Positions 1-37,445 of a stretch of DNA of 64,000 bases are shown here, one piece after another. Every line of letters starts with the position of its first letter. The stretch's first letter is position 1. The stretch is from a virus, in IMG/VR virus record IMGVR_UViG_3300044712_002165, positions 1-64,000 of that record; one strand, 5' to 3'. The notes beneath the pieces are model-generated. The model was not told the origin of the DNA. It did not search any database and saw nothing but the letters and a program-made list of their open reading frames with translations. The translations under genes were made by a program, and so were the position numbers.

Positions 1-63
1 GTTAGCCAGAGCGCCTGATTCCGAATCAGCAGGTCGCAGGTGCAACTCCTGCCGGGAGCACCA
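1..63 (+). tRNA. tRNA-Arg(CCG), 5' end cut off by window edge
   Basis: Anticodon arm cctga-TTCCGAA-tcagc, T arm gcagg-TGCAACT-cctgc, 3' CCA. Confidence 0.85.
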
Positions 64-83
64 GTTTCGTTCTTGCACGTGCC

Positions 84-323
84 ATGCTTCACGCACGAAA
101 AGACTACCAGCGTATCCAGGACCCCGAAGGCAAGATTCCGGCAGACGAACCAGTGTTCCTTCTTCGGGCGCAAGATGCCACCGCGGTGGCGGTGCTCGAA
201 TACTGGATCAGCCTCAACAGCGACGACACGGCGATTCACCTGGCCAGGGAACATGCCGAGCGCATGAGGGCGTGGCCGGTGAAGAAGCGTGCCGATGTGC
301 CGCCTGAAGTTTTGTCCTCGTAG
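84..323 (+). CDS. Hypothetical phage protein (EPVFLLRAQD motif)
   Basis: 79 aa ORF between tRNAs; its TAG stop is U8-A9-G10 of the next tRNA. Confidence 0.75.
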   Translation: MLHARKDYQRIQDPEGKIPADEPVFLLRAQDATAVAVLEYWISLNSDDTAIHLAREHAERMRAWPVKKRADVPPEVLSS

Positions 324-389
324 CTCAGCGCCAAGAGCAGCCGCGTCCTAAGCGGATGGTCGCAGGTTGAAATCCTGCCGGGGACACCA
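314..389 (+). tRNA. tRNA-Arg(CCU)
   Basis: Acceptor gtcctcg/cggggac, anticodon CCT, CCA end. Confidence 0.9.
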
Positions 390-407
390 GTTTCGGTAAG
401 TAGAATC

Positions 408-620
408 GTGACGCCACGACCCGGTCTCAAGGTGTGCTATCGCTTCCTGGCTCCGAGCTACATGTACGAGGAGCATGAGCTGACGGTCCACTCGGTGGAC
501 GCCACCTCGAAGACCCTGGAGACGACGCACGGCACCATGACCTGGGAATACTGGGACTGGATGGTCGAACACCAAATGGTCGTGCCGCTCTCCGCCGCAC
601 AACAGCTTCTGGAAGCGTAG
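408..620 (+). CDS. Hypothetical protein with C-terminal LLE tag
   Basis: TAAGTA-N5-GTG start; ends SAAQQLLEA; stop lies inside tRNA-Val. Confidence 0.65.
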   Translation: MTPRPGLKVCYRFLAPSYMYEEHELTVHSVDATSKTLETTHGTMTWEYWDWMVEHQMVVPLSAAQQLLEA

Positions 621-685
621 CTCAGCAGTAGAGCACCTGGCCTACACCCAGGCTGTCGCGGGTGCAATCCCTGCCGCTTCCACCA
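611..685 (+). tRNA. tRNA-Val(UAC)
   Basis: Acceptor ggaagcg/cgcttcc, anticodon TAC, CCA. Confidence 0.9.
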
Positions 686-714
686 TTTTGCCAGCCTTTT
701 TCGTTCTTGGAACC

Positions 715-1179
715 GTGATTACGAAACGAAAGCAGTGCTATAAATGCAGAAAGTACAAGAGTCTGTCCTCTTTCGGAAAGCGTAAACGGTCAACTGACGG
801 CCTGTGCCCATGGTGCTTCGATTGCATGCGCGTAGCCCACAAGACAACGTATAAAACGAGCCTGTCCAGACGGATTCAGATACGCGCTTCAAATCAGGTG
901 AGGGCCGTTAAATACCGAGAGTGGATTCTAGCTTACTTGGCTGATCATCCGTGCGTGGACTGCGGCGAACATGATCCAGACGTTCTCGAATTCGATCATG
1001 TTCGCGGTATCAAGAGAGGTAGTATAAGCGCGATGCTTGCTCGCAGCTATTCGCTGAAAACAGTGTCGAAGGAACTCTTAAAGTGCGAGGTTAGATGCGC
1101 TAACTGCCATCGGCGAAGAACACGAAAAACAATTTGGAGAGCCCGCGTGGCTTCAGTGGCAACAGCGCCGGTTTCGTAA
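715..1179 (+). CDS. HNH endonuclease
   Basis: CVDCG..LEFDH..CANCH motifs and N-terminal CxxC pairs; GTG start chosen from GTTCT-N7 motif. Confidence 0.85.
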   Translation: MITKRKQCYKCRKYKSLSSFGKRKRSTDGLCPWCFDCMRVAHKTTYKTSLSRRIQIRASNQVRAVKYREWILAYLADHPCVDCGEHDPDVLEFDHVRGIKRGSISAMLARSYSLKTVSKELLKCEVRCANCHRRRTRKTIWRARVASVATAPVS

Positions 1180-1217
1180 ACCGGATACCGTGGGTTCGAG
1201 TCCCACCGTGGGCTCCA
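1141..1217 (+). tRNA. tRNA-Thr(CGU)
   Basis: Acceptor gcccgcg/cgtgggc, anticodon CGT, TTCGA T loop, CCA. Confidence 0.9.
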
Positions 1218-1227
1218 GTTTTTGAAT

Positions 1228-1304
1228 GGTGCGCGGAGTGTGATGGTTTAGCACCCAAGCCTGTGAAGCTTGAAGAGCGGGATCGAAACCCGTCGCGCAC
1301 CCCA
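1228..1304 (+). tRNA. tRNA-His(GUG)
   Basis: G-1:C73 pair, anticodon GTG, CCA. Confidence 0.9.
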
Positions 1305-1308
1305 ATTT

Positions 1309-1383
1309 GTCCTGCGACGGAGCCAGTGAACCGACCGGTCTGCAAAACCGAGGCGTGGAGTGCGACTCTCCAGCAGGACTCCA
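1309..1383 (+). tRNA. tRNA-Cys(GCA)
   Basis: Acceptor gtcctgc/gcaggac, U73, anticodon GCA, CCA. Confidence 0.88.
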
Positions 1384-1387
1384 TTTC

Positions 1388-1463
1388 GCGCACGTAGCTC
1401 AGTCAGCAGAGCGCTGGTCTTCCAAACCAGCCGTCGCGGGTGCAAATCCCGCCGTGCGCTCCA
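1388..1463 (+). tRNA. tRNA-Gly(UCC)
   Basis: Acceptor gcgcacg/cgtgcgc, U73, anticodon TCC, CCA. Confidence 0.92.
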
Positions 1464-1467
1464 CGCT

Positions 1468-1716
1468 ATGAAACTGAACCTCAGGGCCAGCGACAAGACT
1501 GCGCAGCTGCGTGCCTACGCGTACCTCGATGCGCGGGACAAGGCGCTTGAGCCCTACCTCGCCAAGTATCCTGGCAGGTTGCCGCGAAAGATCGCCAGGG
1601 CGGTTCATCAACAGGCTTTGAAAGCCTCCGAAGCAGAGAAAGCGCTGCGCGGCCTTGGTAAGGCTGGGAGCAGGGTGCATGTCCCTGCGGAGGCTCCATA
1701 CTTAGAGCGTGAATAG
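1468..1716 (+). CDS. Hypothetical basic protein
   Basis: ATG just after tRNA-Gly; MKLNLRASDK... Confidence 0.6.
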   Translation: MKLNLRASDKTAQLRAYAYLDARDKALEPYLAKYPGRLPRKIARAVHQQALKASEAEKALRGLGKAGSRVHVPAEAPYLERE

Positions 1717-1960
1717 GGATGCGCTGAGCGTTGCGGCAAGGCTTCTTGAAAACGAGATCGTCACTGTCTGTGCCGCATGTGAAAAGGAACACGGTCCAGT
1801 GCCTGTTTCACCTGGCGTGCTCAAGTCGCATTCGATGTGCAAGCGCCACGCACAAGCGCAATGGTCTGACGTGCTGACCCCAGAAGAGTTCGACTCTCTG
1901 GAATTTGCGCCTGATCTTTCTGAAGTGCCAGCCGGTCCGGCGACCACGCGGGCGTCATAA
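1709..1960 (+). CDS. Small Zn-binding protein with N-terminal LLE tag
   Basis: TACTTA-N4-GTG; ALSVAARLLENE, CxxC...SHxxCxxH. Confidence 0.7.
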   Translation: MNRDALSVAARLLENEIVTVCAACEKEHGPVPVSPGVLKSHSMCKRHAQAQWSDVLTPEEFDSLEFAPDLSEVPAGPATTRAS

Positions 1961-1997
1961 GCCTGCAAGTCCAGATCGACACTGGGGGCTGGTACCA
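1927..1997 (+). tRNA. Atypical tRNA with CAU anticodon (degenerate D arm)
   Basis: Acceptor gccagcc/ggctggt, anticodon arm cgggc-GTCATAA-gcctg, T arm, ACCA; 71 nt. Confidence 0.65.
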
Positions 1998-2006
1998 CTT
2001 TTCTAT

Positions 2007-2081
2007 GGCTCCGTAGCTCAATGGCAGAGCAAGCGGCTCTTACCCGCGAGGTTGCAGGTGCAAGTCCTGTCGGAGCCACCA
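2007..2081 (+). tRNA. tRNA-Lys(CUU)
   Basis: Acceptor ggctccg/cggagcc, anticodon CTT, CCA. Confidence 0.9.
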
Positions 2082-2098
2082 ATCTCGTTCTACCTGGC

Positions 2099-2181
2099 GT
2101 GCAGGCAGCTGCCGGTTTTTGCTGCTTCCCGGCCAGCGCAGGGACTCCGAAGCACAGCAGCGTCAGGAGTCCCGCCTGCAC
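2099..2181 (+). ncRNA. Putative structured ncRNA (two hairpins with complementary loops)
   Basis: Closing stem gtgcaggc/gcctgcac; inner stem gggactcc/ggagtccc; loops tgctgcttc and gaagcacagca are complementary; starts 7 nt after GTTCT. Confidence 0.6.
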
Positions 2182-2185
2182 ACTT

Positions 2186-2260
2186 GCCGGCGTAGCTCAG
2201 CGGCAGAGCAACTGTTTTGTAAACAGTGGGTCGCAGGTTCAATCCCTGTCGCCGGCTCCA
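2186..2260 (+). tRNA. tRNA-Thr(UGU)
   Basis: Canonical cloverleaf, anticodon TGT, CCA. Confidence 0.95.
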
Positions 2261-2273
2261 ACCACAAACGAAC

Positions 2274-2654
2274 ATGCGCTTACTGCCTTTGCTCCTGGTG
2301 CTCGGATTGACCGGCTGCTCGATCTACGTTGAGCAGTTTTCGTTTACGAACCGTCCAGGCGATACCAACGTCGTGTTTCGAGGGACGGTGCGAAGCGCGG
2401 CGTACATCACCAACTTCCTGAGCACTCCGGCACCGACCAACGAGCCGCCGAAGCTCTACACGGTGAAGGTGAAGCACCTGACATTCTTTCAGTGGGGGCG
2501 CGCTGCCAAGCTGGAGACGGCCACGGTCACCAAGGACTTTCTTCGGACGGTCAACGGGGAGGGCCTGGCAACGGGCGTCGATGCGGAAGCCATCAAGGCG
2601 GTGTCCGAGGGCGTGACAGAAGGGGCACTGAAATTCTTCGTGCCGAAACCGTAG
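2274..2654 (+). CDS. Lipoprotein
   Basis: MRLLPLLLVLGLTGC signal peptide with lipobox LTGC. Confidence 0.8.
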   Translation: MRLLPLLLVLGLTGCSIYVEQFSFTNRPGDTNVVFRGTVRSAAYITNFLSTPAPTNEPPKLYTVKVKHLTFFQWGRAAKLETATVTKDFLRTVNGEGLATGVDAEAIKAVSEGVTEGALKFFVPKP

Positions 2655-2661
2655 ACAATTT

Positions 2662-2738
2662 GCGCGGGTAGCTCAGTCCAGTAGAGCAACGCCATGACAT
2701 GGCGAAGGCCGCAGGAGCGAAGCCTGCCCCGCGCACCA
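2662..2738 (+). tRNA. tRNA-Val(GAC)
   Basis: Acceptor gcgcggg/cccgcgc, anticodon GAC, CCA. Confidence 0.9.
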
Positions 2739-2741
2739 TCC

Positions 2742-2963
2742 TCAGCTGTTCGGGCTCGTCCGAAGACGCTTGTAGACCTCCCAGATCGGAGGCGCACCCG
2801 TGTCCTTGGCATCGAACTTGGTCTGGGCAGCCTGCCACGCAGCCATCGCAGGTCCGCGCACCTCGGCTTCGGAAGCGCCCGTGAAGAAGGCGATCACGCC
2901 TCCACGCGGACCGTAGACCAGGGCGACGTACTCGTCGGAATCGAACGTGAATTCGGTCGGCAT
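2742..2963 (-). CDS. Hypothetical protein
   Basis: MPTEFTFDSDEY... fills the gap between two tRNAs. Confidence 0.6.
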   Translation of the reverse strand: MPTEFTFDSDEYVALVYGPRGGVIAFFTGASEAEVRGPAMAAWQAAQTKFDAKDTGAPPIWEVYKRLRTSPNS

Positions 2964-2969
2964 AGTTTT

Positions 2970-3046
2970 GCTCCTGTAGCTCAATCGTCCAGAGCGGGCG
3001 GCTTCGGACCGTCAGGTTGCGGGTTAAAATCCTGCCAGGAGCGCCA
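2970..3046 (+). tRNA. tRNA-Arg(UCG)
   Basis: Acceptor gctcctg/caggagc, anticodon TCG, CCA. Confidence 0.88.
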
Positions 3047-3047
3047 A

Positions 3048-4016
3048 TCACGCACCGAACAGACTCGCAGCTCCGGGCGACGGTGTTGCGGCAGGTCCAG
3101 GCGACGCGGACGGTGCGGTGTCCGCGGTCTCTTCCTTTTCAACGTTCGGGTCCGGAACGCTGACGGCAGGTGCAGTGCCGCCCATGGCATTCTCGTTGGT
3201 CGGCGGCTTCCACTTCATGCGGTCCTTGCCGAGCTTCGGTGCCTGAGGTGCCTGAGGTGCCTTGGCTTCTGGCTCCGGCTCGCTGGGCTTCCAGTTCATG
3301 CGGCCGGCGTGCTTACCTGGTGCCGGCTTCGCTGATGGCTTCGCTGTCGGCGACGCGCCGAGCGACGGGCGACTGCCGGTGAACTTCTTGCCCTTGAAGC
3401 TGAACTTGCCGAGCGATCCCTGCCGCCAGGGGTCCTTCGCTCCGCCCGCTCGCTTCTCGAATTCTTCGCGTCCGTCACCGCCGTAGGCGAAGTCTTCGTC
3501 GAGCATCGCACTGACGACCTGCTCGGCGCTTTCGTGTGCAACGGACTGGCGCATGGCGGAAGCCTTGCGGCGCTTGTTCAGGTAGTCCTGGCGCTTCTTG
3601 GGGTCGGGATTCTGGGACATAGGTTCGCGAGTGTAGGGGTAGCGGTCGCCGATAGGTTCGAGATTGATGAGGTGGCCGGGTGGCTGTGCCTTACGCCGTT
3701 CGTTGACGGCTTCACCCATGCGCCTGGCCATGCCGGCGAGAGTCTGAGCTTTGACGTTTTGCACCTGAATGTTCGGGATTTTCCAGCCGCGACGCGCCAT
3801 GTGCGCCGAAAGGCCGTCCTGATAGCCGCCGGCATCGTTCAGCTTCAACTCGAAACCGTTCTCGGCTCCGTGGTACGGACCTACAACGGCAGGAAGGCGT
3901 TCACCTTCCGGACTGACGACCATAACACGCTTGCCGACGAGTTGCCGGTGCTGAAGCGGTGCGGCCGGGCGCTGCCCCTGCTGCGGCTGCGTCTCGTTTA
4001 CCTGTTTGCGCGTCAC
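3048..4016 (-). CDS. Hypothetical late protein, possible head-internal protein
   Basis: TAGATA-N4-GTG; internal HESAEQVVSAMLDE tag; K/P/A-rich tail. Confidence 0.75.
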   Translation of the reverse strand: MTRKQVNETQPQQGQRPAAPLQHRQLVGKRVMVVSPEGERLPAVVGPYHGAENGFELKLNDAGGYQDGLSAHMARRGWKIPNIQVQNVKAQTLAGMARRMGEAVNERRKAQPPGHLINLEPIGDRYPYTREPMSQNPDPKKRQDYLNKRRKASAMRQSVAHESAEQVVSAMLDEDFAYGGDGREEFEKRAGGAKDPWRQGSLGKFSFKGKKFTGSRPSLGASPTAKPSAKPAPGKHAGRMNWKPSEPEPEAKAPQAPQAPKLGKDRMKWKPPTNENAMGGTAPAVSVPDPNVEKEETADTAPSASPGPAATPSPGAASLFGA

Positions 4017-4034
4017 ACCCTATCTACCGTTTTC

Positions 4035-4118
4035 GCCAGCGTGGTTTGCCCGGAATAGCAGACGGGCCTGCTTCAGAGGCAGTGAGCCTTGGGAGTGCAA
4101 TTCTCCCCGCTGGCACCA
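4035..4118 (+). tRNA. tRNA-Leu(CAG), non-canonical fold
   Basis: Acceptor gccagcg/cgctggc, A73, CCA; GGTT insert before the D arm pairs with AGCC in the variable region. Confidence 0.85.
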
Positions 4119-4130
4119 GTTCTTATGAAC

Positions 4131-4415
4131 ATGAAGCGTCGTACGTTCCTCTCACGACTTGTCGGCAGTGCGATCCTTGGCCGGTTTCTGCCCAAGGTCC
4201 TGGCCAAAGCGCCGGCCGCAGTCGTGGCACAGACGACGACGGCCAACGCACAGGCGTTCAGCGCGTGGGTTTTCCCGGTGATCCGGAACATGTCGCCAAG
4301 TGACGTGCTCACGGACCTGGTCAGCGTTCAACCGATGACGGCTCCGAGCGGCAACGTCATGTACCTCGATTTCAAGACGGACTCGAAGCCGGACCCGAAC
4401 GGTTGCCTTTTGTAA
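4131..4415 (+). CDS. Twin-arginine-leader mini-protein carrying a major capsid protein segment (QPM region)
   Basis: MKRRTFL leader; 18/35 identity to residues ~97-131 of the capsid protein at 35982. Confidence 0.8.
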   Translation: MKRRTFLSRLVGSAILGRFLPKVLAKAPAAVVAQTTTANAQAFSAWVFPVIRNMSPSDVLTDLVSVQPMTAPSGNVMYLDFKTDSKPDPNGCLL

Positions 4416-4419
4416 ACAA

Positions 4420-4680
4420 ATGAAACGTCGAAAATTCATCGCAGCTCTGGTTGGTGCTCCGGCTTTCCTCAAGGCGGCAGGAAGGCTGCGCGCAGCGCCG
4501 CCGCGTGTAATCGAGATGAAGCTCGTCAGTGCGCCTGTGGTTGCACAAGCGCGCAAGCTGAAGGCGATGTGGACGTGCGAGCTTGAACAGGACCTCAACG
4601 CCATGTACAACATTGAGGTCGAAGACATCCTCAAGAAAGCGCTTGATGGACATTTTGCCAGCGTGGTTAAGCCCGAATAG
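4420..4680 (+). CDS. Twin-arginine-leader mini-protein carrying a second capsid protein segment
   Basis: MKRRKFI leader; 24/44 identity to capsid residues ~257-300. Confidence 0.8.
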   Translation: MKRRKFIAALVGAPAFLKAAGRLRAAPPRVIEMKLVSAPVVAQARKLKAMWTCELEQDLNAMYNIEVEDILKKALDGHFASVVKPE

Positions 4681-4740
4681 CAGAGGGTTCAGTTCGAGAG
4701 ACTGAGAGCCTTAGGGGTGCAAGTCCCTTCGCTGGCACCA
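4657..4740 (+). tRNA. tRNA-Leu(GAG), non-canonical fold
   Basis: Same architecture as Leu(CAG); loop TC-GAG-AG; CCA. Confidence 0.82.
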
Positions 4741-4752
4741 ATTCTTAAAGAC

Positions 4753-5232
4753 GTGAGAGTGCTTGGTCCTTACCTCTGGCGCACAGGTGTAAACGCTGGT
4801 CGGCGCTACGTTCAGATTGTATACGCCGATGGGCGAAAAACAACGATGACGTGGGCGCGCTTTCAGCTTCGGAATCGCGTTAAAAAGGATGACTGCGTTC
4901 ATCACGTTGACGGCGATAAATCGAACGATAGCGCCTCAAATTACGCGATTGAATCGCGAAAGGAGCACGGGCGTATACACGCTAAGATTGAGTGCGGCGT
5001 TGAGATCGCTTGCGTTTGGTGTGGAAAAGTGTGCGTTAAAAGAGCACAAAAGTTAGACCATAACTCAAAGCAAGGAAAAGCAGGTCCGTTTTGCGGTAAA
5101 CGTTGCGTTGGCCTGTATAGTGAGTACGTCAGGCGCGGAGGAAACAGGTTGGCTGTTCAGCCTAGACGCCCTGTCGAAAGCAGAATCTACGGGCGAGTGG
5201 TTCACGGGGAACAGCAGACCCGACCGGCCTAG
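4753..5232 (+). CDS. HNH homing endonuclease
   Basis: VHHVDGDKSND..N motif, C-terminal CxxC...FCGxxC; stop is the TAG anticodon of the next tRNA. Confidence 0.85.
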   Translation: MRVLGPYLWRTGVNAGRRYVQIVYADGRKTTMTWARFQLRNRVKKDDCVHHVDGDKSNDSASNYAIESRKEHGRIHAKIECGVEIACVWCGKVCVKRAQKLDHNSKQGKAGPFCGKRCVGLYSEYVRRGGNRLAVQPRRPVESRIYGRVVHGEQQTRPA

Positions 5233-5274
5233 ACCCGGATAGCCTTGGAGGTGCAATTCCTCTCTCGCCCACCA
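5191..5274 (+). tRNA. tRNA-Leu(UAG), non-canonical fold
   Basis: Acceptor gggcgag/ctcgccc, GGTT/AGCC extra helix, CCA. Confidence 0.82.
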
Positions 5275-5292
5275 TTTTCGGGTATCTAATCC

Positions 5293-5940
5293 GTGCGTGT
5301 CATCACCTGCGTCAGCGTTGCGCTCACAACGCACTGCAACCTGGCCTGTCCAGACTGTTGCTGCGATATTCCGCGGCGCGGCGGAGGCACTCCGGTCGCC
5401 TGGGAGTATCTGGAGCTGGCAGCACAGCACTTGCGCGGCACGCCGAGGATCAATCTGACCGGTGGCGAGCCGACAACGCATCCACACTTCGATGAGTGGA
5501 GCCCGCGTTTTCGCGATCTGTTTCAGTGCTCGAAGCTGACCGTGGAGACGAATGGAATTTTGTCTACGAAACACGTGGACGCTCTGAGGTGCTACGATAC
5601 TGTATACGTTACGCACTACACGCCCGACACGTTCAAGGACGCGCCTTCGTACTACAGGGTGGACAACTCCAGGCAAATTGAAATTCTGCGCGAGGCGCTC
5701 GGCGACCGGCTCTACGTCAAGCCGTACATGTACCACCAGCCCAGACGCGAGCAGCGTGGTACCAAGCCTTGCGCCGCGGCCTTTTCGGAGACGGTGGCCT
5801 TCTGGAACGGCAAGCTGTTTCCGTGCTGCCTGGCTGACGGTGTTCCGAATGCGGTCGGCATTCCCTTGACGGACGATTGGCGAACGCGCATACACGAAGT
5901 GCAGCCTCCATGCGCGACCTGTTTTTTCGCAGTTCCATAG
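5293..5940 (+). CDS. Radical SAM protein with C-terminal Cys-rich (SPASM-like) region
   Basis: CNLACPDC, TGGEP, ETNG, PCC...CATC. Confidence 0.9.
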   Translation: MRVITCVSVALTTHCNLACPDCCCDIPRRGGGTPVAWEYLELAAQHLRGTPRINLTGGEPTTHPHFDEWSPRFRDLFQCSKLTVETNGILSTKHVDALRCYDTVYVTHYTPDTFKDAPSYYRVDNSRQIEILREALGDRLYVKPYMYHQPRREQRGTKPCAAAFSETVAFWNGKLFPCCLADGVPNAVGIPLTDDWRTRIHEVQPPCATCFFAVP

Positions 5941-6023
5941 CCCGTGTGGGTTGACAGCGAATACAAGAGCACTGGCACTTAAAAGCCGGACCTTTGCAGG
6001 TGGAAGTCCTGCCACGGGCACCA
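5940..6023 (+). tRNA. tRNA-Leu(UAA), non-canonical fold
   Basis: Acceptor gcccgtg/cacgggc, GGGT/ACCT extra helix, anticodon loop has 8 nt or a bulged A, CCA. Confidence 0.75.
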
Positions 6024-6027
6024 ATTT

Positions 6028-6111
6028 CGCGGCGTGGTTTACCCGGAATAGCAGACGGGGCGGTTTCAAAAACCGACAGCCTTGGAGGTGCAATTCCTCT
6101 CGCCGCGACCA
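6028..6111 (+). tRNA. tRNA-Leu(CAA), non-canonical fold
   Basis: Acceptor cgcggcg/cgccgcg, GGTT/AGCC extra helix, CCA. Confidence 0.85.
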
Positions 6112-6114
6112 TTT

Positions 6115-6241
6115 CGGCCGGAGCACATCGGACGAGGCTTAGGCTCGTGTGCGGGTGGAGATACCGAGGCGGTCCCCAGAGACCGATAGTGATCCCGAAG
6201 CGAATCGAGGTGGGAAGCGTGCGGATGACCAGCTCCGGTCG
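6115..6241 (+). ncRNA. Putative multi-stem ncRNA
   Basis: Closing stem cggccgggagc/gctccggtcg with internal hairpins gcaca/tgtgc, cggtc/gaccg, tccc/ggga. Confidence 0.5.
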
Positions 6242-6254
6242 TCTAGTTACAGGC

Positions 6255-6821
6255 ATGGACGCTGTTCGCATCGTAAACGTTTTGCTGGAGATGCCGCAGA
6301 TCACGCGTAAAGGAAAGACTGTATACGCGGATGATCAGCCGTTGCGCGACGTTCCAGACGTTGCGGTCAAGGGCAACATCGTCATCATCCGTCAGCCAAC
6401 AGCGAACGCCCTGGTTCCCGAGGGTTTCACGCTCGTCTACTTCATGGACAGCGACGAGTCGGCTGCGGCCATGAAAGCCGGCAAGCTGCCGTACAAGTTC
6501 GTGCACAACCGTCCGCGCTTCTCGTTCGACGCGTCGCCGATCACCGATGTCTGGAAGGGCCAGTTTGACAAAGGCCAGAAGGCCATCCTGGGCGTGCTCC
6601 AGGGCACGAGCGACGAGAACGAGATTTACGTAGACAAAATGACCGTTCGGCCGGCGTACAAGCGCAACACGATCATGCGCCGCTTGGTGGGAGCGCTCCA
6701 GGCGTCGTTCCCAAACGCAAAGGTCAACTTCTCCGGCCCGACCAAGGAAGGCGCGGCGTTCATCCGCGGCACCACCGGCAGCGATTGGGTGCCGGCGCAC
6801 GGCGAAACGCCGGAGTTCTGA
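6255..6821 (+). CDS. GNAT-like acetyltransferase with N-terminal LLE tag
   Basis: TAGTTA-N5-ATG; MDAVRIVNVLLE; IYVDKMTVRPAYKRNTI and TKEGAAF resemble GNAT motifs A and B. Confidence 0.65.
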   Translation: MDAVRIVNVLLEMPQITRKGKTVYADDQPLRDVPDVAVKGNIVIIRQPTANALVPEGFTLVYFMDSDESAAAMKAGKLPYKFVHNRPRFSFDASPITDVWKGQFDKGQKAILGVLQGTSDENEIYVDKMTVRPAYKRNTIMRRLVGALQASFPNAKVNFSGPTKEGAAFIRGTTGSDWVPAHGETPEF

Positions 6822-6885
6822 ATGTTTACAGAAGGCTGTTGACAATCGGCCTTCGAGTCGGCACAGTGCGCACGTTCTTTTTGGA

Positions 6886-6960
6886 CGCAGGGTGGAGCAG
6901 CGGTAGCTCGTCAGGCTCATAACCTGGAGGTCGGCGGTTCGATCCCGTCCCCTGCACCCA
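6886..6960 (+). tRNA. Initiator tRNA-fMet(CAU)
   Basis: C1:A72 mismatch, GAGC/GCTC D stem, anticodon CAT, CCA. Confidence 0.88.
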
Positions 6961-6963
6961 TTT

Positions 6964-7152
6964 CCGGCGAAAGCCGGGTGGAGGTTCGGCTGAAACCGAA
7001 CTTCCAGGCGGGCGGCTTCGTTGCAGCCCGCCACCTTTTCTCCGCGCCAGCGCGGGGTAGCGCCGAAAGGCACTGGAAGCGCAAGCAGCTGGATGGTGGA
7101 CGGCGTAGTCGCAAGACTGGCCCCTTCGCCCCTTGGGGAAACCTGAGGGGCG
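6964..7152 (+). ncRNA. Putative structured RNA rich in GNRA-capped hairpins
   Basis: ccggc-GAAA-gccgg, gcc-GAAA-ggc, agtc-GCAA-gact, cgccccttggg-GAAA-cctgaggggcg; no credible ORF. Confidence 0.5.
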
Positions 7153-7174
7153 CTGTTTTCTGATCTTTGATATT

Positions 7175-7595
7175 GGGGGTGTACTGGTATCGATCTGTGT
7201 AAACAGATCGGTTGCTGCGTGCCGAGGATGATCGTTGGCCTCGTAAAATCTGCGATCAAAACATCAACTGCCAACAGGCTGAGTGATGAGTCGGTCCTCG
7301 CGGAAGCGGAAGCCATCCTGGCCAACCCGGATGCTTTCCTCCCCGCGGAGGTCGAAGCCGTGGCCTAACAAGGTCACCCGGTTGCCTGTAGACGCCTGCT
7401 AAGCAGGGTCAACCGTCATCAGCAGGATCGTGGCGCTTCGAGCAGTGTCGAAGCTCCGGCAGCTGGGTCAAGCTGCACCACAGGCTCTGCGCGATTTTGC
7501 TGATTCAGCGCAGCCTGGACTCAAATCAGCTATGCACGTAGACGCGGCCGGTTGTAGACGCAGAGACGCGGGTTCAACTCCCGCCACCTCCACCA
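7175..7595 (+). ncRNA. ssrA: tmRNA
   Basis: 5' GGGGGTG with G3:U70, 3' T arm plus CACCTCCACCA; tag frame 7270-7368 ANRLSDESVLAEAEAILANPDAFLPAEVEAVA*. Confidence 0.92.
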
Positions 7596-7599
7596 TTTT

Positions 7600-8069
7600 C
7601 GCGCCGCCAAGCTCCGGCTAACCGTGAGGGCTCCGTTGATCCGGTGTACGACAGTTGAAAGATGCACCGGGGAGTAGAGCCACTGTCGGCGGCGCGATTC
7701 AATTTGGTGAGCGCAGCGTCATGACCTGCGCGTTCTCGGCAAAATCCCGTCTGCATAGTGCGTACGAACGAAAGCGGCCAAGCCTGTAGAAGGCGTCAGG
7801 GTGGATATTCGTCGGTGAAAATCCGAAGGCCGAGACACCTTTTTCGTAAACAATACCGCAAAGGTTAGTGGGTTCAGCAGCATCCCGCGACGGTGGAACC
7901 CTTAGGCTGCCAGGCAGAGGTGCGGTGACTCTGCCAACGATTTTGGGGACTACGGACGCGCACCATGGTCAAAAAGCGCGTCCCCGCTGAAAGCTTCGCC
8001 TGACCAGCGTTGTGATGTAGGCTAAACCCCACGCCTGGACGATGAGTGCACGTAGTCGTCCAGTGCCCC
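7600..8069 (+). ncRNA. Four tandem unannotated structured RNA modules (7600-7696, 7706-7839, 7845-7939, 7944-8069)
   Basis: Strong stems (cgcgccgcc/ggcggcgcg; tctcggc/gccgaga; ggcagag/ctctgcc; ggacgcgc/gcgcgtcc), separated by T runs; no credible ORF. Confidence 0.55.
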
Positions 8070-8073
8070 TTTC

Positions 8074-8254
8074 ACGAGCCGAAGGCTAGGGTTATCATAA
8101 CGGTCCTAAGGTAGCGACGCTCCGGTGACGGACTTAGCGAGGACGACGAGTCTGCTGTAGCCGTAGATAAATTGTCCGTTTCGATGACGGTCATCGCATG
8201 AATCCGCGACCCGTACAGAAGACCGAAAAACATCCTATCCGCACACTTGCTCGT
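8074..8254 (+). ncRNA. Y RNA with a 23S rRNA-like insert
   Basis: Ro60-binding bulged helix ACGAG-CCGA...CACTTG-CTCGT, second stem ggctaggg/tcctatcc, TTATCAT motif shared with the neighbouring Y RNA. Confidence 0.75.
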
Positions 8255-8264
8255 TTACAGTTTT

Positions 8265-8408
8265 GTTGGTGGTCCGAACGTGTTGCTTATCATCGGTACC
8301 GCGGGTCGCAGGTTCAAATCCTGCCGTCTCGGCTTTCGATCCGAGGCGTAGCTCAGCCTGGTTAGAGCAGCGGTCAGCATTTGCGACGCGATCCACTTGA
8401 TCACCGAC
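8265..8408 (+). ncRNA. yrlA: YrlA-type Y RNA with permuted tRNA-like domain
   Basis: GGTCCGA...CTTGATC helix; T arm, then closed acceptor hairpin, then D arm; directly upstream of Ro60. Confidence 0.88.
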
Positions 8409-8531
8409 TTCCTTTTCGTCCCCCTGGGTCGAAAGCGTTCGAGCCGCTCCCTTGCCTGAACGCGATACCCAAGAACGGCCGATGAGCACGGCCGGCGAAA
8501 GCGTTTGGGGAGTGCGCGTGCTCGTCCACAG

Positions 8532-10214
8532 ATGGCAAAGATCAGCACTGCCTCGTTTCACCGTCGGCGTTCCATTCCCGTCACTGAGCCCATCCCAGGG
8601 CGCAAGGAAATGGTGCCGAACTCCACTGGTGGCTACGCCTGGAAGGTCACCGAGTGGGATCAGCTCGACCGCTTCCTGATCCTGGGCGTCACTGGCGGCA
8701 CCTACTACATCGGCGAGCGCAAGCTCACCGATGACAACGCGGCTGCCGTCAAGGCGTGCATCCAGCTGGATGCCGGCCGTGTTGTTGACCGCGTCGTCGA
8801 GGTCTCCGTCGGAGGTCTCGCGCTCCGCAACGATCCGGCCATCTTCGCGCTCGCGCTCGTCGCTGCCAGCAACGACGCCGAGGCCAAGGCCAAGGTCGCT
8901 GCTGCGCTCCCGCAGGTCTGCCGCACCGGTACGCACCTGCTGCACTACGGCGATTACGTCAACGCTTTGCGCGGCTGGGGTCCCTCGGTCCGCAAGAGCG
9001 TCGCGTCCTGGTACACCGGCCGTGAGGCCGACAACCTGGCGTTCCAGGTCGGCAAGTATCAGAGCCGCGACAACTGGTCGCATCGCGACTTGCTGCGTCT
9101 CACGCACCCGAAGGCTCCGAACGAGGCCACCGACGCGGTTTTCCGGTGGATCGTTGGCGGCATGGAGGCTGTCAACGGCCGGACCGTGAAGCGCAAGGAC
9201 GGCAGCTCGGTCAAGTACCCGTCGCTGCGCGAGCACCTGCCTCGGTTCCTGGCTGCCATGGAAGAGGTCAAGGCAGCCAAGAAGGCCAAGGATGTGGTTC
9301 GGCTCATCACCGAGCACAACCTGCCTCGCGAGGTCATTCCGACCGAGTGGCTCAATGAGGTCGAGGTCTGGGAGGCGCTTCTCCAGAAGATGCCGCTCAC
9401 GGCCATGATCCGCAACCTGGGCAAGATGACCTCCATCGGCCTGGTTCGCCCGCTCTCCGCGGGCGCACGGCTCGTCAAGGAGCGCCTTGGCAACAAGGAC
9501 TACCTCCGGAAGAGCCGCATTCACCCAATCAGCGTCCTCGTGGCTGCGCGGACCTACGCGCAGGGCAAGGGCGTCAAGGGCAGCCTGTCCTGGAGCCCTG
9601 TGCCCGCCGTCCAGACGGCGCTGGATGAGGCGTTCTACGCCACGTTCGGCAACGTCCGGAAGATCGGCAAGCCGGTTCTGATCGCGCTCGACGTGTCCGG
9701 TTCCATGGGTTCGTCCGCGGCCGGTACGGTCCTGCGCGCCTGCGAGGCGACGGCAGCAATGTCGCTCGTCTGGCTGAACACGGAGCCCGAGGTTCACGTG
9801 TTCGGTTTCGGAAGTACGTTCCGCGAACTCGGCATCCGCAAGGGCATGACCCTGGAGGCTGCGTGCCAGAAGGCCGTGCAGGCGAACTTCGGTTCGACCA
9901 ACATCGGTCTGGCGGTTGAGTACGCGGAGCAGCACAAGATCGATGTCGGCGGCTTCATCGTCATGACCGACAACGAGGGCAACACGGGTGAGCAGCCCGC
10001 AAAGGTGATGGAGCGCTACCGCAAGGCCCGCGTTCCTGACGCTCGCCTCGTGATGGCTGCCACGTCAGCCAATCAGTATCGGGCAAGCGACCCGAACGAC
10101 AAGTGGAGCCTGGATGTGGCGGGTTTCGATCCGTCAGTCCCCACGGTCGTCAACAACTTCATCCGCGGCAGCGCGGGCGAGGAAACTGTTGACGAGCCCG
10201 AGTCGGAGGAGTAA
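8532..10214 (+). CDS. rsr: Ro60/TROVE-domain RNA-binding protein with vWA domain
   Basis: NSTGGY, LDRFLILG..GGTYY, KYQSR..WSHRDLLRL.H, MPLTAMIRNLG, DVSGSM, TDNE, GFD. Confidence 0.95.
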   Translation: MAKISTASFHRRRSIPVTEPIPGRKEMVPNSTGGYAWKVTEWDQLDRFLILGVTGGTYYIGERKLTDDNAAAVKACIQLDAGRVVDRVVEVSVGGLALRNDPAIFALALVAASNDAEAKAKVAAALPQVCRTGTHLLHYGDYVNALRGWGPSVRKSVASWYTGREADNLAFQVGKYQSRDNWSHRDLLRLTHPKAPNEATDAVFRWIVGGMEAVNGRTVKRKDGSSVKYPSLREHLPRFLAAMEEVKAAKKAKDVVRLITEHNLPREVIPTEWLNEVEVWEALLQKMPLTAMIRNLGKMTSIGLVRPLSAGARLVKERLGNKDYLRKSRIHPISVLVAARTYAQGKGVKGSLSWSPVPAVQTALDEAFYATFGNVRKIGKPVLIALDVSGSMGSSAAGTVLRACEATAAMSLVWLNTEPEVHVFGFGSTFRELGIRKGMTLEAACQKAVQANFGSTNIGLAVEYAEQHKIDVGGFIVMTDNEGNTGEQPAKVMERYRKARVPDARLVMAATSANQYRASDPNDKWSLDVAGFDPSVPTVVNNFIRGSAGEETVDEPESEE

Positions 10215-10219
10215 TTCAC

Positions 10220-10249
10220 GGGCGGCTCTTCGGAGCCGCTCTTTTGTTT
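10220..10249 (+). terminator. Intrinsic terminator
   Basis: gggcggctc-TTCG-gagccgctc followed by TTTTGTTT. Confidence 0.8.
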
Positions 10250-10251
10250 AC

Positions 10252-10341
10252 GGAAGTGTGACCGAGCCCAGTAAGGTACCGACTTGCTAAGTCGAGGTCA
10301 GGGTAAAACCTGCGCAGGAGCGAAGCCTGCCACTTCCGCCA
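10252..10341 (+). tRNA. tRNA-Ser(GCU)
   Basis: Long variable arm, G73, anticodon GCT, CCA. Confidence 0.9.
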
Positions 10342-10359
10342 CTTTCCAGAAGCGAAGTA

Positions 10360-10902
10360 ATGTCAAAGCGTCTACCAAAACGCGATTCCACGATTATTCT
10401 GCAACTGGCCATGTCTGCTTACGAGGCGCGCCTGTTGCGCGACGAGCTATGTGGTCAGCTTTCTGAAATGGATTTGGACGACGCTACAGCTGACGTTTTT
10501 GAGGACCACGAAACCGTTCTAACCACGTCTTTCGACGATTGGGTCAACATTCGCCAAAACGACGTATACAGAAAAAGGCTGAGGCCCGTGCTAGAGAAAA
10601 CGGTGAAGGCACTGCGCGTGTCTCTCGGCCTTTCACCTGAGATTCCAACGGTCAAACTGCCGATGGCGTTGGCTGATCGTGACGGGCATACCTTGCAGGA
10701 ATTTAGGCTTTACCTCGACTTGCACAAAAAGGGTCTGCTTGATAATTCAACTAGGCTCAAAGGTCTCGCAAAGTTTGAAAAATGCGCTAGAACGCTGAAC
10801 GCGACTTATATCGCAAAGGATACGTCGTGGTATTACGACGGAACTGTATACGCCACGTTTGACGCGCTTTGCGAAAGGCTCATTAGTGATTTTCGGGAAT
10901 AG
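10360..10902 (+). CDS. Hypothetical protein
   Basis: 180 aa ORF filling the gap between two tRNAs; lower GC. Confidence 0.7.
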   Translation: MSKRLPKRDSTIILQLAMSAYEARLLRDELCGQLSEMDLDDATADVFEDHETVLTTSFDDWVNIRQNDVYRKRLRPVLEKTVKALRVSLGLSPEIPTVKLPMALADRDGHTLQEFRLYLDLHKKGLLDNSTRLKGLAKFEKCARTLNATYIAKDTSWYYDGTVYATFDALCERLISDFRE

Positions 10903-10903
10903 C

Positions 10904-10980: not shown

Positions 10981-10998
10981 CGTTCTCCTGAAGCAGAC

Positions 10999-11454: not shown

Positions 11455-11458
11455 CTTG

Positions 11459-11517: not shown

Positions 11518-11528
11518 TTTTCGTTTTC

Positions 11529-11603: not shown

Positions 11604-11607
11604 GTTT

Positions 11608-35981: not shown

Positions 35982-37445
35982 ATGGTTATTCTGCACGAAA
36001 CAGGACGGCCGATGCTGGCGAGTGAAGGCGGTCACATCAACCGCTTCACCGACATCCTCGAATGGGGTTACCGCCTGGCTGAGACGCCGGTCGGCACCCC
36101 CGAAAAGAACCCCCGCGGTCTCTGGGAAGCCAGGGGCTGGAAGGAGTTCGTCCAACACATGCCCGAGCACAAGCGCCCCATCGCGGCGATCATGCTCGAA
36201 AACTGCCGTTCCCGCTGGGGCCGGCTGGACGAAGTTACCCGGACCACAAGTCTCGGTACCTTTGATAAGTGGATCTTCCCGGTGATTGCGAACATGTCCG
36301 AGAACGACGTGATCGACCAGCTCGTCGCCATCCAGCCGATGGCCGGTCCGGTCAGTCAGATCGTTTACATGGACATCGTCACCGGACGCCGGAAGGGCCG
36401 CACGCCCGCTGGCGCGCCGATGTGGCGTGCGCTCCAGGGCGCGGTTGACCGCGACGACGACGCCGACGAGCTGATCCAGGACGAGACCGGCACCTCGAAC
36501 GGTTCCGGCGTGATCGTGCTGGAATGGACTCCGATTCGCGCCGGCACGCTGTCCGGCACCGTCGGCTCCATCTCGGTGGCCGACGACGGCAACGGCAACA
36601 TCATCAACGTGGCGTCCAACGCTACCGTCGGTACCGTCGTGTACCAGGGCACGGGCGCGGGCACGATCACCATCGCGTCGCAGGCGAACGCGAGCTACAC
36701 GCTCACCTACGCCTACAACTCGGAAGGCAACCTGGCGATCCAGGACTACGAGATGAAGCTCTCATCGACGCCGGTTACGGCGAAGGTGATGAAGCTGAAG
36801 ACCCTCTGGTCCGAGGAAGCCGACCAGAACCTCCAGGCGATGTACAACATCAAGGCCGAGAGCGTCCTGCTCAACGCCCTGACCAACGCGCTCCAGTACC
36901 AGAAGCACCGCCAGGTGATCTTCGATCTGCGCGCCAAGGCTGACGCCGGCTTCGTCGTCTGGGACGCCATCGCTCCGGCGAACGTCAACTACCAGACGCA
37001 CAAGTTCTCGATCATCGACGCGTTCGAGACCGCCTCGAACTTCATCTTCGGTGCCACGAACATGGTCGCCGGCAACTGGGTGCTCCTGGGTCTCCAGGCT
37101 GCCACCGTGGTGGCCACGCTGCCTCAGTTCGTGCCGAAGAACTCCCGGGTCCAGATGCAGGGCATCACCTACATCGGTGATCTTGGAAATAAGAAAATCT
37201 TCTCGGACCCGCACTATCCGAACAACGAGTTCCTCGTCGGCCACAAGGGCGACCAGTTCCTCACGACCGGGTACGTTCTGGCGGAATATCAAAAATTGTA
37301 TACAACGCCCGACGTTGTTCTCCCGGACTTCATCCACCAGCGCGGCTTCGCCACGAGCTTCGCTCGGAAGATGATCAACTCGAAGATGTTCTGCCGCGGA
37401 TTGGTTCAGAACTCTCCGACGGCGTTCGGCCAGACCATCGGCTAA
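35982..37445 (+). CDS. Major capsid protein (T4 gp23-like)
   Basis: QPMAGP, KLK..WS.EA.Q.L.A, GN, LVGHKG...GYVLA.Y; directly after protease. Confidence 0.95.
   Translation: MVILHETGRPMLASEGGHINRFTDILEWGYRLAETPVGTPEKNPRGLWEARGWKEFVQHMPEHKRPIAAIMLENCRSRWGRLDEVTRTTSLGTFDKWIFPVIANMSENDVIDQLVAIQPMAGPVSQIVYMDIVTGRRKGRTPAGAPMWRALQGAVDRDDDADELIQDETGTSNGSGVIVLEWTPIRAGTLSGTVGSISVADDGNGNIINVASNATVGTVVYQGTGAGTITIASQANASYTLTYAYNSEGNLAIQDYEMKLSSTPVTAKVMKLKTLWSEEADQNLQAMYNIKAESVLLNALTNALQYQKHRQVIFDLRAKADAGFVVWDAIAPANVNYQTHKFSIIDAFETASNFIFGATNMVAGNWVLLGLQAATVVATLPQFVPKNSRVQMQGITYIGDLGNKKIFSDPHYPNNEFLVGHKGDQFLTTGYVLAEYQKLYTTPDVVLPDFIHQRGFATSFARKMINSKMFCRGLVQNSPTAFGQTIG

What the first reader, a model, noticed from the sequence alone, without database searches (positions are those of the whole stretch)
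4131..4680. Two twin-arginine-leader mini-proteins that copy separate segments of the major capsid protein
Seen: both begin with a Tat-like leader (MKRRTFL, MKRRKFI, then a hydrophobic stretch). ORF 4131 carries WVFPVIRNMSPSDVLTDLVSVQPMTAPSGNVMYLD (18/35 identical to capsid residues ~97-131). ORF 4420 carries EMKLVSAPVVAQARKLKAMWTCELEQDLNAMYNIEVEDILKKAL (24/44 identical to ~257-300). They sit in the tRNA island under a GTTCT motif, 31 kb from the capsid gene. Established: the first segment is equivalent to the T4 gp23 Gol peptide region that triggers Lit protease, and capsid proteins are known defence triggers (Lit, CapRel). Inference: capsid-epitope decoys that sequester or relocate sensors, or dominant-negative inhibitors of competitor capsid assembly. 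A separate leader on each piece argues against simple pseudogene decay.
Basis: partly seen in the sequence, partly recalled or inferred. Interest (0 to 1): 0.86.

Follow-up and report, generated by a model that had tools for sequence, protein, structure and literature searches.

The report
Leader-tagged mini-proteins made of capsid pieces
An uncultured large T4-like phage from rhizosphere soil carries two small, intact, conserved genes that each join a twin-arginine (Tat-type) leader to a different signature piece of the head-shell protein. They belong to two widespread families of such phage mini-proteins that I found in no paper and no cultured phage, and their function is untested.

Summary
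ORF1 (4131-4415, 94 aa) and ORF2 (4420-4680, 86 aa) each carry an N-terminal RRxF(L/I) leader followed by a piece of a gp23-type major capsid protein (MCP). ORF1 matches own MCP residues 86-137, equivalent to T4 gp23 93-128, which includes the Gol region. ORF2 matches own MCP 257-300, equivalent to T4 gp23 about 251-295 (return linker strand plus spine helix).

They are genes, not debris. The codon-position GC pattern fits coding. dN/dS is about 0.22 against a syntenic metagenome locus. Five of six environmental SNPs are synonymous, and there is one in-frame indel. Homologues of 66-92% identity exist.

An exhaustive profile search and a word-indexed search found at least 28 and 20 clusters of short proteins with the same design. 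None was found in 50,697 phage records. The capsid pieces interleave with real MCPs on a tree, which suggests repeated capture or conversion.

Tat-likeness holds only at motif level here. ORF1's hydrophobic core is interrupted by arginines, and the Tat HMM hits neither protein.

The pair sits between two unusual tRNA-Leu-like genes, behind a phage start motif (GTTCT).

The function is unknown. My best guess (about 0.3) is a membrane- or Tat-directed mimic of linear MCP motifs that competes for a factor binding unassembled MCP. This scan found the same design before, in at least 8 findings from at least 7 other genomes.

The parts
4035..4118 (+). tRNA-Leu-like gene, anticodon CAG, with an extra helix (GGUU/AGCC). 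It ends in CCA directly upstream of the mini-gene pair.
   Evidence: ARAGORN and Rfam both miss it. In an alignment of 7 copies from the window and L084, 16 of 25 predicted pairs keep pairing through changes on both sides.
4119..4123 (+). GTTCT start-proximal motif, 7 nt before the ATG of ORF1.
   Evidence: 17 of 100 GTTCT sites in the window lie 3-10 nt (mostly 7-8) before the start of an ORF of 70 aa or more. Letter permutations of the motif give 5-12%. The same motif precedes long genes at 15283, 19950, 21483, 31741, 44531(-) and others. It is conserved before the mini-gene in L084.
4131..4415 (+). ORF1 (P0001, 94 aa). Leader: residues 1-34 (MKRRTFLSRLVGSAILGRFLPKVLAKAPAAVVAQ). MCP-like piece: residues 35-86 (4233-4388). 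Short tail ending CLL.
   Evidence: GC by codon position is 0.58/0.47/0.77, like the MCP gene. Homologues are 71-82% identical.
4420..4680 (+). ORF2 (P0002, 86 aa). Leader: residues 1-31. MCP-like piece: residues 32-75 (4513-4644). The start lies 4 nt after ORF1's stop. The last 7 codons and the stop lie inside the next tRNA-like gene.
   Evidence: GC by codon position is 0.66/0.39/0.63. NG86 dN/dS against L084 is 0.44/1.97. There are 4 synonymous and 0 non-synonymous environmental SNPs, plus an in-frame GTT insertion behind 4503.
4657..4740 (+). tRNA-Leu-like gene, anticodon GAG. Its first 24 nt encode ORF2's C-terminal ASVVKPE and the stop codon.
   Evidence: The same tRNA-encoded tails (VVK[PR]E, or FRQR[GD] in another frame) end 11 of the 20 ORF2-type clusters.
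4754..5232 (+). HNH endonuclease gene inserted between tRNA-Leu-like (GAG) and (UAG). It is a neighbour, probably a mobile insertion, and not part of the mini-gene pair. The likely start is GTG 4754, 7 nt after ATTCT.
   Evidence: PHROG 14913 HNH endonuclease, E 2e-10. Pfam HNH_3 gives a weak match. The gene is absent from the syntenic locus L084, where the two tRNAs lie 10 nt apart.
35982..37445 (+). The phage's own gp23-type major capsid protein (P0003, 487 aa), whose segments the mini-proteins resemble.
   Evidence: Pfam Gp23, E 2.6e-29. It follows a prohead protease/scaffold gene at 34278-35945 (Peptidase_S77).

Best explanation
Shown: ORF1 and ORF2 are two real, translationally coupled small genes. 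They are members of two widespread, undescribed families of phage mini-proteins. In these families a shared N-terminal leader (M-N/K-R-R-x-F-L/I, a moderately hydrophobic stretch, often ending Pro-Lys/Arg) is fused to one of two conserved linear pieces of the gp23-type MCP. One piece is the end of the N-arm plus the first strand (the Gol region). The other is the return linker strand plus the spine helix.

Inferred mechanism:
- The fragments cannot build the HK97 fold, yet they keep nearly all pan-gp23 invariant residues. I therefore think they act as mimics of unassembled MCP.
- As mimics they would compete for a factor that recognises these linear motifs. Candidates are a host sensor of the Lit/CapRel kind, or EF-Tu, the only partner known to bind the Gol stretch as a free peptide.
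- The leader would take the mimic, and whatever it holds, to the inner membrane or the Tat translocon. That would also keep the mimic out of the phage's own proheads.

Every step from 'binds a factor' onward is inference.
For: Real genes:
- The coding GC3 pattern holds in the + frames but not in the overlapping reverse ORF.
- dN/dS is about 0.22 against L084, next to 0.19 and 0.09 for the two neighbouring genes.
- 5 of 6 environmental SNPs are synonymous, and there is one in-frame indel.
- Homologues of 66-92% identity keep the leader, the capsid piece and the tail.
- The start motif GTTCT-N7-ATG is shared with about 10 long genes and is conserved in L084.

Family:
- An exhaustive HMM search gave 376 hits. 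Among the top hits, at least 28 clusters are 85-150-aa proteins that match from the leader onward.
- 20 ORF2-type clusters were found.
- The leaders of the two families align at 95% probability, E 2e-8.
- 45 of 48 members carry RRxF[LIFV].

Mimicry appears to be the selected property:
- Mini and MCP labels interleave on the tree. It needs 8 changes, and 0 of 200 bootstrap trees show one origin.
- One mini (P0071) is 38/40 identical to an MCP of the window's type.
- ORF1 folded alone gives no confident fold, pLDDT 60.

Precedents for the inferred partner:
- The Gol 29-mer binds EF-Tu domains II/III as a free peptide (PMC3014915).
- Lit and CapRel sense MCP by short motifs. Avs7 recruits EF-Tu. 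The authors note that T4 MCP binds EF-Tu and suggest Avs7 may exploit such an interaction.
Against: - No result here shows binding, export or any effect on defence.
- ORF1's leader has Arg9 and Arg18 inside the would-be hydrophobic core (uncharged run of 8). TIGR01409 and Pfam's Tat model hit neither window protein. Only 6 of 28 family members reach TIGR01409 at E up to 10, with a best E-value of 0.0017.
- A free Gol-like peptide would be expected to activate a Lit-type protease rather than block it.
- Avs-type sensors envelop the whole MCP fold, which a 50-residue piece cannot imitate.
- The window's own pieces are only 42% and 55% identical to its own MCP.
- The first gene of the block that runs on to the prohead protease and MCP genes (31741) carries the same GTTCT motif. 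Co-expression with capsid genes, and so an assembly role, is therefore not excluded.
- The family is absent from cultured phages, so there is no experimental anchor.
Confidence: 0.3

Rival explanations
1. Head-assembly factor. The leader ties the MCP-like pieces to the inner membrane. There they pair with full-length MCP, portal or scaffold to nucleate or chaperone prohead assembly, in a role like the T4 membrane chaperone gp40.
For: - T4 proheads start on the inner membrane with portal gp20 and gp40 (PMC9546572).
- In T4 the two segments contain Met98 and His282/Met284, which anchor the portal whiskers. The N-terminal stretch faces the scaffold in the unexpanded head.
- The pieces track MCP subtypes on the tree.
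- The GTTCT motif also precedes 31741, the first gene of the block that runs on to the prohead protease and MCP genes.
- Earlier scan notes report Tat-tagged portal fragments in other phages (unchecked).
Against: - With an N-in twin-arginine leader, the passenger would end up in the periplasm, away from proheads.
- The window's pieces are only 42-55% identical to its own MCP.
- The genes are missing from cultured T4-like phages and from two (near-)complete IMG/VR T4-like genomes, so they are not a general requirement.
- L084 has only one of the two genes.
Confidence: 0.2
2. Weapon against co-infecting relatives. The fragments are dominant-negative pieces that poison a competitor's capsid assembly, or exported proteins that exclude superinfecting phage at the envelope.
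For: - T4-type phages do export small proteins for superinfection exclusion (Imm, Sp; mentioned in PMC13128918).
- ORF1 is closer to the pan-gp23 consensus (VSVQPM, PSG) than to the window's own MCP.
- The location is an accessory-gene island with a homing endonuclease.
Against: - Capsid proteins of an incoming phage never enter the periplasm.
- A cytoplasmic poison aimed at conserved motifs would also hit the phage's own MCP.
- No result supports either variant.
Confidence: 0.15
3. Exapted envelope proteins. The leader exports a small protein whose capsid-derived strand or helix is only a convenient structural scaffold, with a job unrelated to capsids. A variant: they are RiPP-like precursors modified by the neighbouring radical SAM enzyme and then exported by Tat.
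For: - A radical SAM gene with a C-terminal Cys cluster lies three genes downstream, and two tRNAs downstream in L084.
- Its weak best hits include SPASM/twitch peptide maturases and MoaA.
- ORF2-type proteins carry a family-specific Cys (WTCE) that MCPs lack.
- Tat typically exports proteins matured in the cytoplasm (my own knowledge).
Against: - Repeated capture or conversion from MCPs argues that likeness to MCP itself is selected.
- All radical SAM hits are far below their family cut-offs.
- The radical SAM gene has a different start motif.
- ORF1-type proteins have no conserved Cys.
- No co-occurrence beyond these two loci could be tested.
Confidence: 0.12
4. Non-functional leftovers of a second capsid gene broken up in the tRNA island.
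For: - Partial gene duplicates occur in T4, for example alt.-1/alt.-2 (record note).
- ORF2 runs into a tRNA gene before it stops.
- ORF1 is absent from L084.
Against: - The frames are intact in all homologues.
- dN/dS is below 1, the SNPs are mostly synonymous, and the indel is in frame.
- The leader is conserved across two broad families.
- The start motif is conserved.
Confidence: 0.04

Closest known systems
Gol region of T4 gp23 in the Gol / EF-Tu / Lit (prophage e14) exclusion system
   Same: ORF1's capsid piece aligns with T4 gp23 93-128, the most conserved stretch of gp23. In T4 this stretch works as a free peptide of about 29 residues: it binds EF-Tu domains II/III and so lets the Lit protease cut EF-Tu (PMC3014915).
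   Different: - Gol is part of the capsid protein and is a liability to the phage. Here the stretch is a separate gene with its own leader, kept by selection.
- ORF2's piece (spine helix) has no counterpart in the Gol system.
- EF-Tu binding and Lit activation were not tested.
Twin-arginine (Tat) signal peptides (TIGR01409, PF10518)
   Same: - The RRxF(L/I) motif lies at residues 3-7.
- A moderately hydrophobic stretch follows.
- In most family members there is a Pro plus a basic residue at the end of the stretch.
- Possible small-x-small cleavage sites are VVA/Q in ORF1 and LRA/A in ORF2.
   Different: - No HMM hit for either window protein.
- ORF1's core is interrupted by Arg9 and Arg18.
- Many AT-rich members lack an AxA site.
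- The passenger is a 50-residue fragment that does not fold alone.
gp23/gp24 major capsid and vertex proteins (Pfam PF07068, HK97 fold; PDB 7VS5, 5VF3)
   Same: Both pieces score above the Pfam gathering threshold and are colinear with the MCP.
   Different: They cover 43 and 46 of the 376 profile positions. They lack the insertion domain, the rest of the P domain and the whole A domain, so they cannot form a capsomer subunit.
Phage proteins that block sensing of a structural protein, such as DSAD1 against DSR2
   Same: This would be the functional analogue if the decoy reading is right: a phage protein that competes with a virion protein for an immune sensor (abstract of PMC11087589, listed).
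   Different: Nothing in that abstract says DSAD1 is a copy of the trigger or has an export-type leader. No binding is shown here.

Membership tests
Tat signal peptide | Consensus twin-arginine motif (S/T-R-R-x-F-L-K) near the N-terminus | tested here: met
   ORF1 has K-R-R-T-F-L-S and ORF2 has K-R-R-K-F-I-A at residues 2-8. 45 of 48 family members have RRxF[LIFV].
Tat signal peptide | Uncharged, moderately hydrophobic h-region of about 12-20 residues after the motif | tested here: inconclusive
   ORF2 has a 12-residue run (FIAALVGAPAFL). ORF1 has only 8 (LVGSAILG) between Arg9 and Arg18. Typical family members have 12-20.
Tat signal peptide | Recognised by the curated profiles (TIGR01409, PF10518) | tested here: not met
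   There is no hit for P0001 or P0002 at E up to 1-10. 6 of 28 family members hit TIGR01409 at E up to 10, best E 0.0017.
Tat signal peptide | Export depends on TatABC and on the RR pair | not testable with these tools
   This needs reporter fusions in wild type against a tatC mutant, and RR-to-KK variants.
gp23-type major capsid protein (PF07068) | Sequence match to the family profile above its gathering score | tested here: met
   29.7 and 36.7 bits against a cut-off of 24.4. PHROG 138 major head protein, E 7e-8 and 9e-9.
gp23-type major capsid protein (PF07068) | Complete HK97 fold (P domain, A domain, E-loop or insertion-domain linkers) | tested here: not met
   Only profile positions 4-46 and 133-178 of 376 are present. 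The AlphaFold2 model of ORF1 has pLDDT 60 and no fold.
Gol peptide (activator of Lit) | Corresponds to the Gol stretch of T4 gp23 (about residues 93-122) | tested here: met
   Alignment with T4 gp23 from NC_000866: ORF1 residues about 44-73 lie opposite T4 93-122.
Gol peptide (activator of Lit) | Binds EF-Tu domains II/III and promotes cleavage by Lit | not testable with these tools
A biochemical test is needed.
RiPP precursor of the neighbouring radical SAM enzyme | Conserved co-occurrence of precursor and maturase, and a maturase of a peptide-modifying family | tested here: inconclusive
   The genes are adjacent in the window and in L084 only. The radical SAM hits are all far below their cut-offs. 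It has no relatives in IMG/VR.
Pseudogene fragments | Neutral evolution, broken frames, no conservation | tested here: not met

The most novel reading that the evidence does not exclude
The mini-proteins are 'eviction tags'. Each capsid-motif piece grips a cytoplasmic factor that normally recognises unassembled capsid protein, such as a motif-reading immune sensor or EF-Tu. The twin-arginine leader then drags the complex to the Tat translocon, either hitchhiker export or jamming at the membrane, and so disarms capsid sensing. This would be a new class of phage counter-defence built from the phage's own PAMPs.
Probability: 0.08. Interest if true: 0.95.

Novelty: categorically new. Interest (0 to 1): 0.72.

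Why it matters
The most conserved linear motifs of the T4-type head protein are the ones bacteria are known to read as an infection signal (Lit, CapRel). Many uncultured phages keep stand-alone copies of exactly these motifs, each fitted with an export-type leader and held under selection. That points to an unrecognised layer of phage biology: counter-defence by self-mimicry, membrane-linked head assembly, or rivalry between phages.

The genes are small and modular, so they are easy to test. The families give dozens of natural variants. The recurrent placement beside tRNA genes, together with the known Gol/EF-Tu contact, suggests a possible link to translation.

Tried and rejected
I could not fetch the contigs of the homologues, including one of 146 kb and one of 234 kb. 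Context and codon-level dN/dS for most of the family are therefore missing.
- **IMG/VR scans.**
  - With P0002, with the pattern KLKAVWTCE and with a gapped leader...VQPM pattern, nothing was found.
  - With P0001, only full capsid genes were found.
  - With the radical SAM protein, nothing was found.
- **Metagenome scan** gave one syntenic locus, L084.
- **Complex prediction of ORF1 (35-94) with ORF2 (28-86):** no answer, score 0.00. This is evidence neither for nor against binding.
- **AlphaFold2 of ORF1** with 28 sequences: pLDDT 60, no fold. I made no fold search on it.
- **ESM Atlas:** no usable hit.
- **phmmer of the own MCP against PDB:** no hit. I mapped through T4 gp23 instead.
- **Sequencing runs:** no RNA holder is listed, so there is no evidence on expression. 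The contigs laid were short and shallow.
- **Sigma-70 promoter scan** of 1-8000: no more sites than in shuffles.
- **Considered and rejected:**
  - One split gene joined by frameshift or intron. Each piece has its own start and leader.
  - The reverse-strand ORF 4152-4634 as the true gene. Its codon-position GC is flat.

Full report
**What is there.** The window is the first 64 kb of a 75-kb IMG/VR virus record, rated about one third complete by CheckV. It has 60% G+C and comes from a rhizosphere sample.

It is a distant T4-type phage:
- A prohead protease/scaffold gene lies at 34278-35945 and a gp23-type MCP gene at 35982-37445.
- The MCP is at most 30% identical to that of any phage in a 50,697-record collection.

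The first 12 kb form an RNA island. It holds 13 tRNAs called by ARAGORN, a tmRNA at 7175-7595, a Ro60 homologue with Y-RNA-like matches, and four tRNA-Leu-like genes that both tRNA finders miss.

**The two genes.** ORF1 (4131-4415) and ORF2 (4420-4680) lie between the tRNA-Leu-like genes with anticodons CAG (4035-4118) and GAG (4657-4740).

| | ORF1 | ORF2 |
|---|---|---|
| Own residues in the match | 35-86 | 32-75 |
| Own MCP residues matched | 86-137 | 257-300 |
| Identity | 42% | 55% |
| E-value | 2e-14 | 3e-14 |

Both pass Pfam Gp23 above its cut-off. The record holds no other MCP-like piece.

Against T4 gp23, taken from NC_000866, the pieces correspond to residues 93-128 and about 251-295. 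The first covers the Gol stretch. According to the T4 head structures it spans the end of the N-terminal arm, which is disordered and faces inward in the unexpanded head, and the first built strand. The second is the return strand of the insertion-domain linker plus the P-domain helix that carries His282 and Met284 (PMC9546572).

ORF1's homology starts just after the MCP sequence RLDE, which looks like a prohead-protease site (L-x-E). That is where the mature MCP would begin. The site assignment is my inference from T4 knowledge.

The two pieces are colinear with the MCP. Together they would flank the insertion domain.

**Are they genes?**
- *Composition.* Codon-position G+C is 0.58/0.47/0.77 for ORF1 and 0.66/0.39/0.63 for ORF2. 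The MCP gene shows 0.57/0.42/0.86. The 160-codon reverse ORF across them is flat.
- *Close homologues.* ORF1 has homologues of 82, 78 and 71% identity, and ORF2 of 92 and 66%. All conserve the leader, the capsid piece and the tail.
- *A syntenic locus.* One metagenome locus (L084) keeps the order tRNA-Arg, reverse gene, tRNA-Leu(CAG), mini-gene, tRNA-Leu(GAG), tRNA-Leu(UAG), radical SAM gene. It has only an ORF2-type gene, whose leader looks more like ORF1's (GRFIKP). It has no HNH gene.
- *dN/dS.* NG86 dN/dS for ORF2 against L084 is 0.44/1.97. The two neighbouring genes give 0.29/1.52 and 0.15/1.68. dS is saturated, so these are rough.
- *Environmental variants.* In contigs from four other samples, 5 of 6 differences inside the two ORFs are synonymous. 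The only indel is an in-frame GTT, which matches the extra residue in homologue P0009. Depth is low.
- *Start signals.* ORF1's ATG lies 7 nt after GTTCT. This pentamer precedes ORF starts twice as often as its letter permutations do, mostly at 7-8 nt. It precedes about 10 long genes and the mini-gene in L084. No gene I looked at has a Shine-Dalgarno sequence. ORF2 starts 4 nt after ORF1's stop, which suggests coupling.

**The families.** An exhaustive profile search with the ORF1 alignment gave 376 hits. The 28 sequences I aligned, four of them ORF1 and its close homologues, are 85-150-residue proteins that match from the leader onward. Their consensus is M(N/K)RRxFLK, a hydrophobic stretch, often ...PK..., then F(D)KWIFPVIxN...L(V)SVQPMxxPSGxxFYMDF.

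A word-indexed search with the ORF2 alignment gave 20 clusters with ...RKLKAVWTCE(L)EQDL....

The leaders of the two families align profile-to-profile at 95% probability, E 2e-8.

The families were not found in several places:
- 50,697 phage records, using one ORF1-type (P0038) and one ORF2-type (P0169) family member as queries. Each matching record has a single place, and in the rows I inspected it lay under the capsid gene.
- 30 IMG/VR T4-like contigs, including two (near-)complete genomes.

Three full-text searches aimed at this design found no description. The scan's own notes list the same design at least 8 times in at least 7 other genomes, always with unknown function.

**Origin of the capsid pieces.** On a tree of the 41-residue first piece from 28 minis and 23 MCPs, the two labels interleave. 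The tree needs 8 changes, and none of 200 bootstrap trees shows one origin. With so few columns, one origin is not strictly excluded.

Minis carrying the ...NM(S/P)xxDV... signature group with the window's MCP type. Minis carrying ...RRVYPxL... group with ordinary T4-type MCPs. One mini (P0071) is 38/40 identical to an MCP of the window's type.

The window's own ORF1 sits in a separate, older group and is nearer the pan-gp23 consensus than its own MCP. This pattern fits repeated capture or gene conversion. It suggests that likeness to an MCP is what selection keeps.

**The leader.** 45 of 48 proteins have RRxF[LIFV] at the N-terminus. Typical members have 12-20 uncharged residues ending in Pro followed by Lys or Arg. 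From my own knowledge, these are textbook Tat features, with the basic c-region acting as 'Sec avoidance'.

The window's clade departs from this:
- ORF1 has Arg9 and Arg18 inside the stretch, leaving an uncharged run of 8. ORF2 has 12.
- TIGR01409 hits 6 of 28 members weakly and neither window protein.
- Pfam's Tat model hits neither.

I therefore call the leader Tat-like, not Tat.

**Link to tRNA genes.** ORF2's last seven codons and its stop are the first 24 nt of the tRNA-Leu-like (GAG) gene. Eleven of the 20 ORF2-type clusters, and at least two ORF1-type ones (P0012, P0014), end in tails that are translations of such a tRNA, in two different frames.

This may only mean that tRNA islands collect accessory genes. 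It may also point to translation, since the Gol stretch binds EF-Tu.

If RNase P cuts the tRNA out of a common transcript, ORF2's message would lose its stop codon. The phage encodes a tmRNA. This is speculation.

**Function.** No tool result bears on it. Co-folding ORF1 with ORF2 gave no answer, and ORF1 alone has no confident fold.

Literature frames the options:
- The Gol 29-mer binds EF-Tu as a free peptide (PMC3014915).
- Lit and CapRel sense MCP through short motifs.
- Avs7/8/10 envelop the whole fold, and Avs7 recruits EF-Tu.
- T4 heads start on the inner membrane.

I rank a membrane- or Tat-directed MCP mimic that competes for an MCP-motif reader first, at about 0.3. An assembly factor comes second (0.2). 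Then come a weapon against rival phages (0.15), an exapted or radical-SAM-modified envelope protein (0.12), and debris (0.04). The remaining 0.19 is left for something I have not thought of.

**Verdict.** The pseudogene reading is rejected, and the decoy reading is possible but untested. The design belongs to no described family.

Noticed in passing
window 4035-4118, 4657-4740, 5191-5274, 6028-6111; L084 1497-1582, 1838-1923, 1933-2016: Four tRNA-Leu-like genes (anticodons CAG, GAG, UAG, CAA) are missed by ARAGORN and by Rfam at E up to 1. They share an invariant extra helix (GGUU/AGCC) that encloses the D and anticodon hairpins, in place of a long variable arm. 16 of 25 predicted pairs show compensatory changes across the window and L084.
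   Followed up: partly
window 1-11700: Many of the phage's tRNAs have a T-loop that reads TGCAA, with G where the near-universal pseudouridine-55 position lies (repeat families D1, D2).
   Followed up: no
window 7175-7595; 8505-10214; 8300-8372 and 11543-11666: The phage encodes a tmRNA (Rfam 127 bits), a Ro60 homologue (TROVE plus Ro60 vWA domains, E 8e-44 and 5e-40), and weak YrlA-type Y-RNA matches. Together with the tRNA genes they form an RNA-surveillance island.
   Followed up: no
window, for example 15283, 19950, 21483, 31741, 44531(-), 61780; and 6255, 13836, 16320, 49890, 52011: Two start-proximal motifs take the place of a Shine-Dalgarno sequence. GTTCT lies 7-8 nt before the start codon: 17% of its sites precede ORFs, against 5-12% for its letter permutations. 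CTAGTTA lies about 5 nt before the start of other genes. Both look like -10-type elements of leaderless transcripts.
   Followed up: partly
window 4754-5232: An HNH endonuclease gene is inserted between two tRNA-Leu-like genes that lie 10 nt apart in L084. Its reading frame ends at the TAG that is the anticodon of the following tRNA-Leu-like (UAG) gene.
   Followed up: partly
window 5293-5940; L084 2034-2615: A 215-residue radical SAM protein has CNLACPDC at the N-terminus and a C-terminal Cys cluster. It is 81% identical in L084 and has only weak MoaA/SPASM-type matches. It has no relatives in IMG/VR.
   Followed up: partly
window 4657-4680: ORF2's stop codon lies inside the downstream tRNA-like gene. 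RNase P processing of a shared transcript would leave a message without a stop codon in a phage that carries its own tmRNA.
   Followed up: no
window 3048-4016 (-): A 322-residue protein with no family match is conserved in L084 (66% identity) and sits between tRNA-Arg and tRNA-Leu-like (CAG).
   Followed up: no
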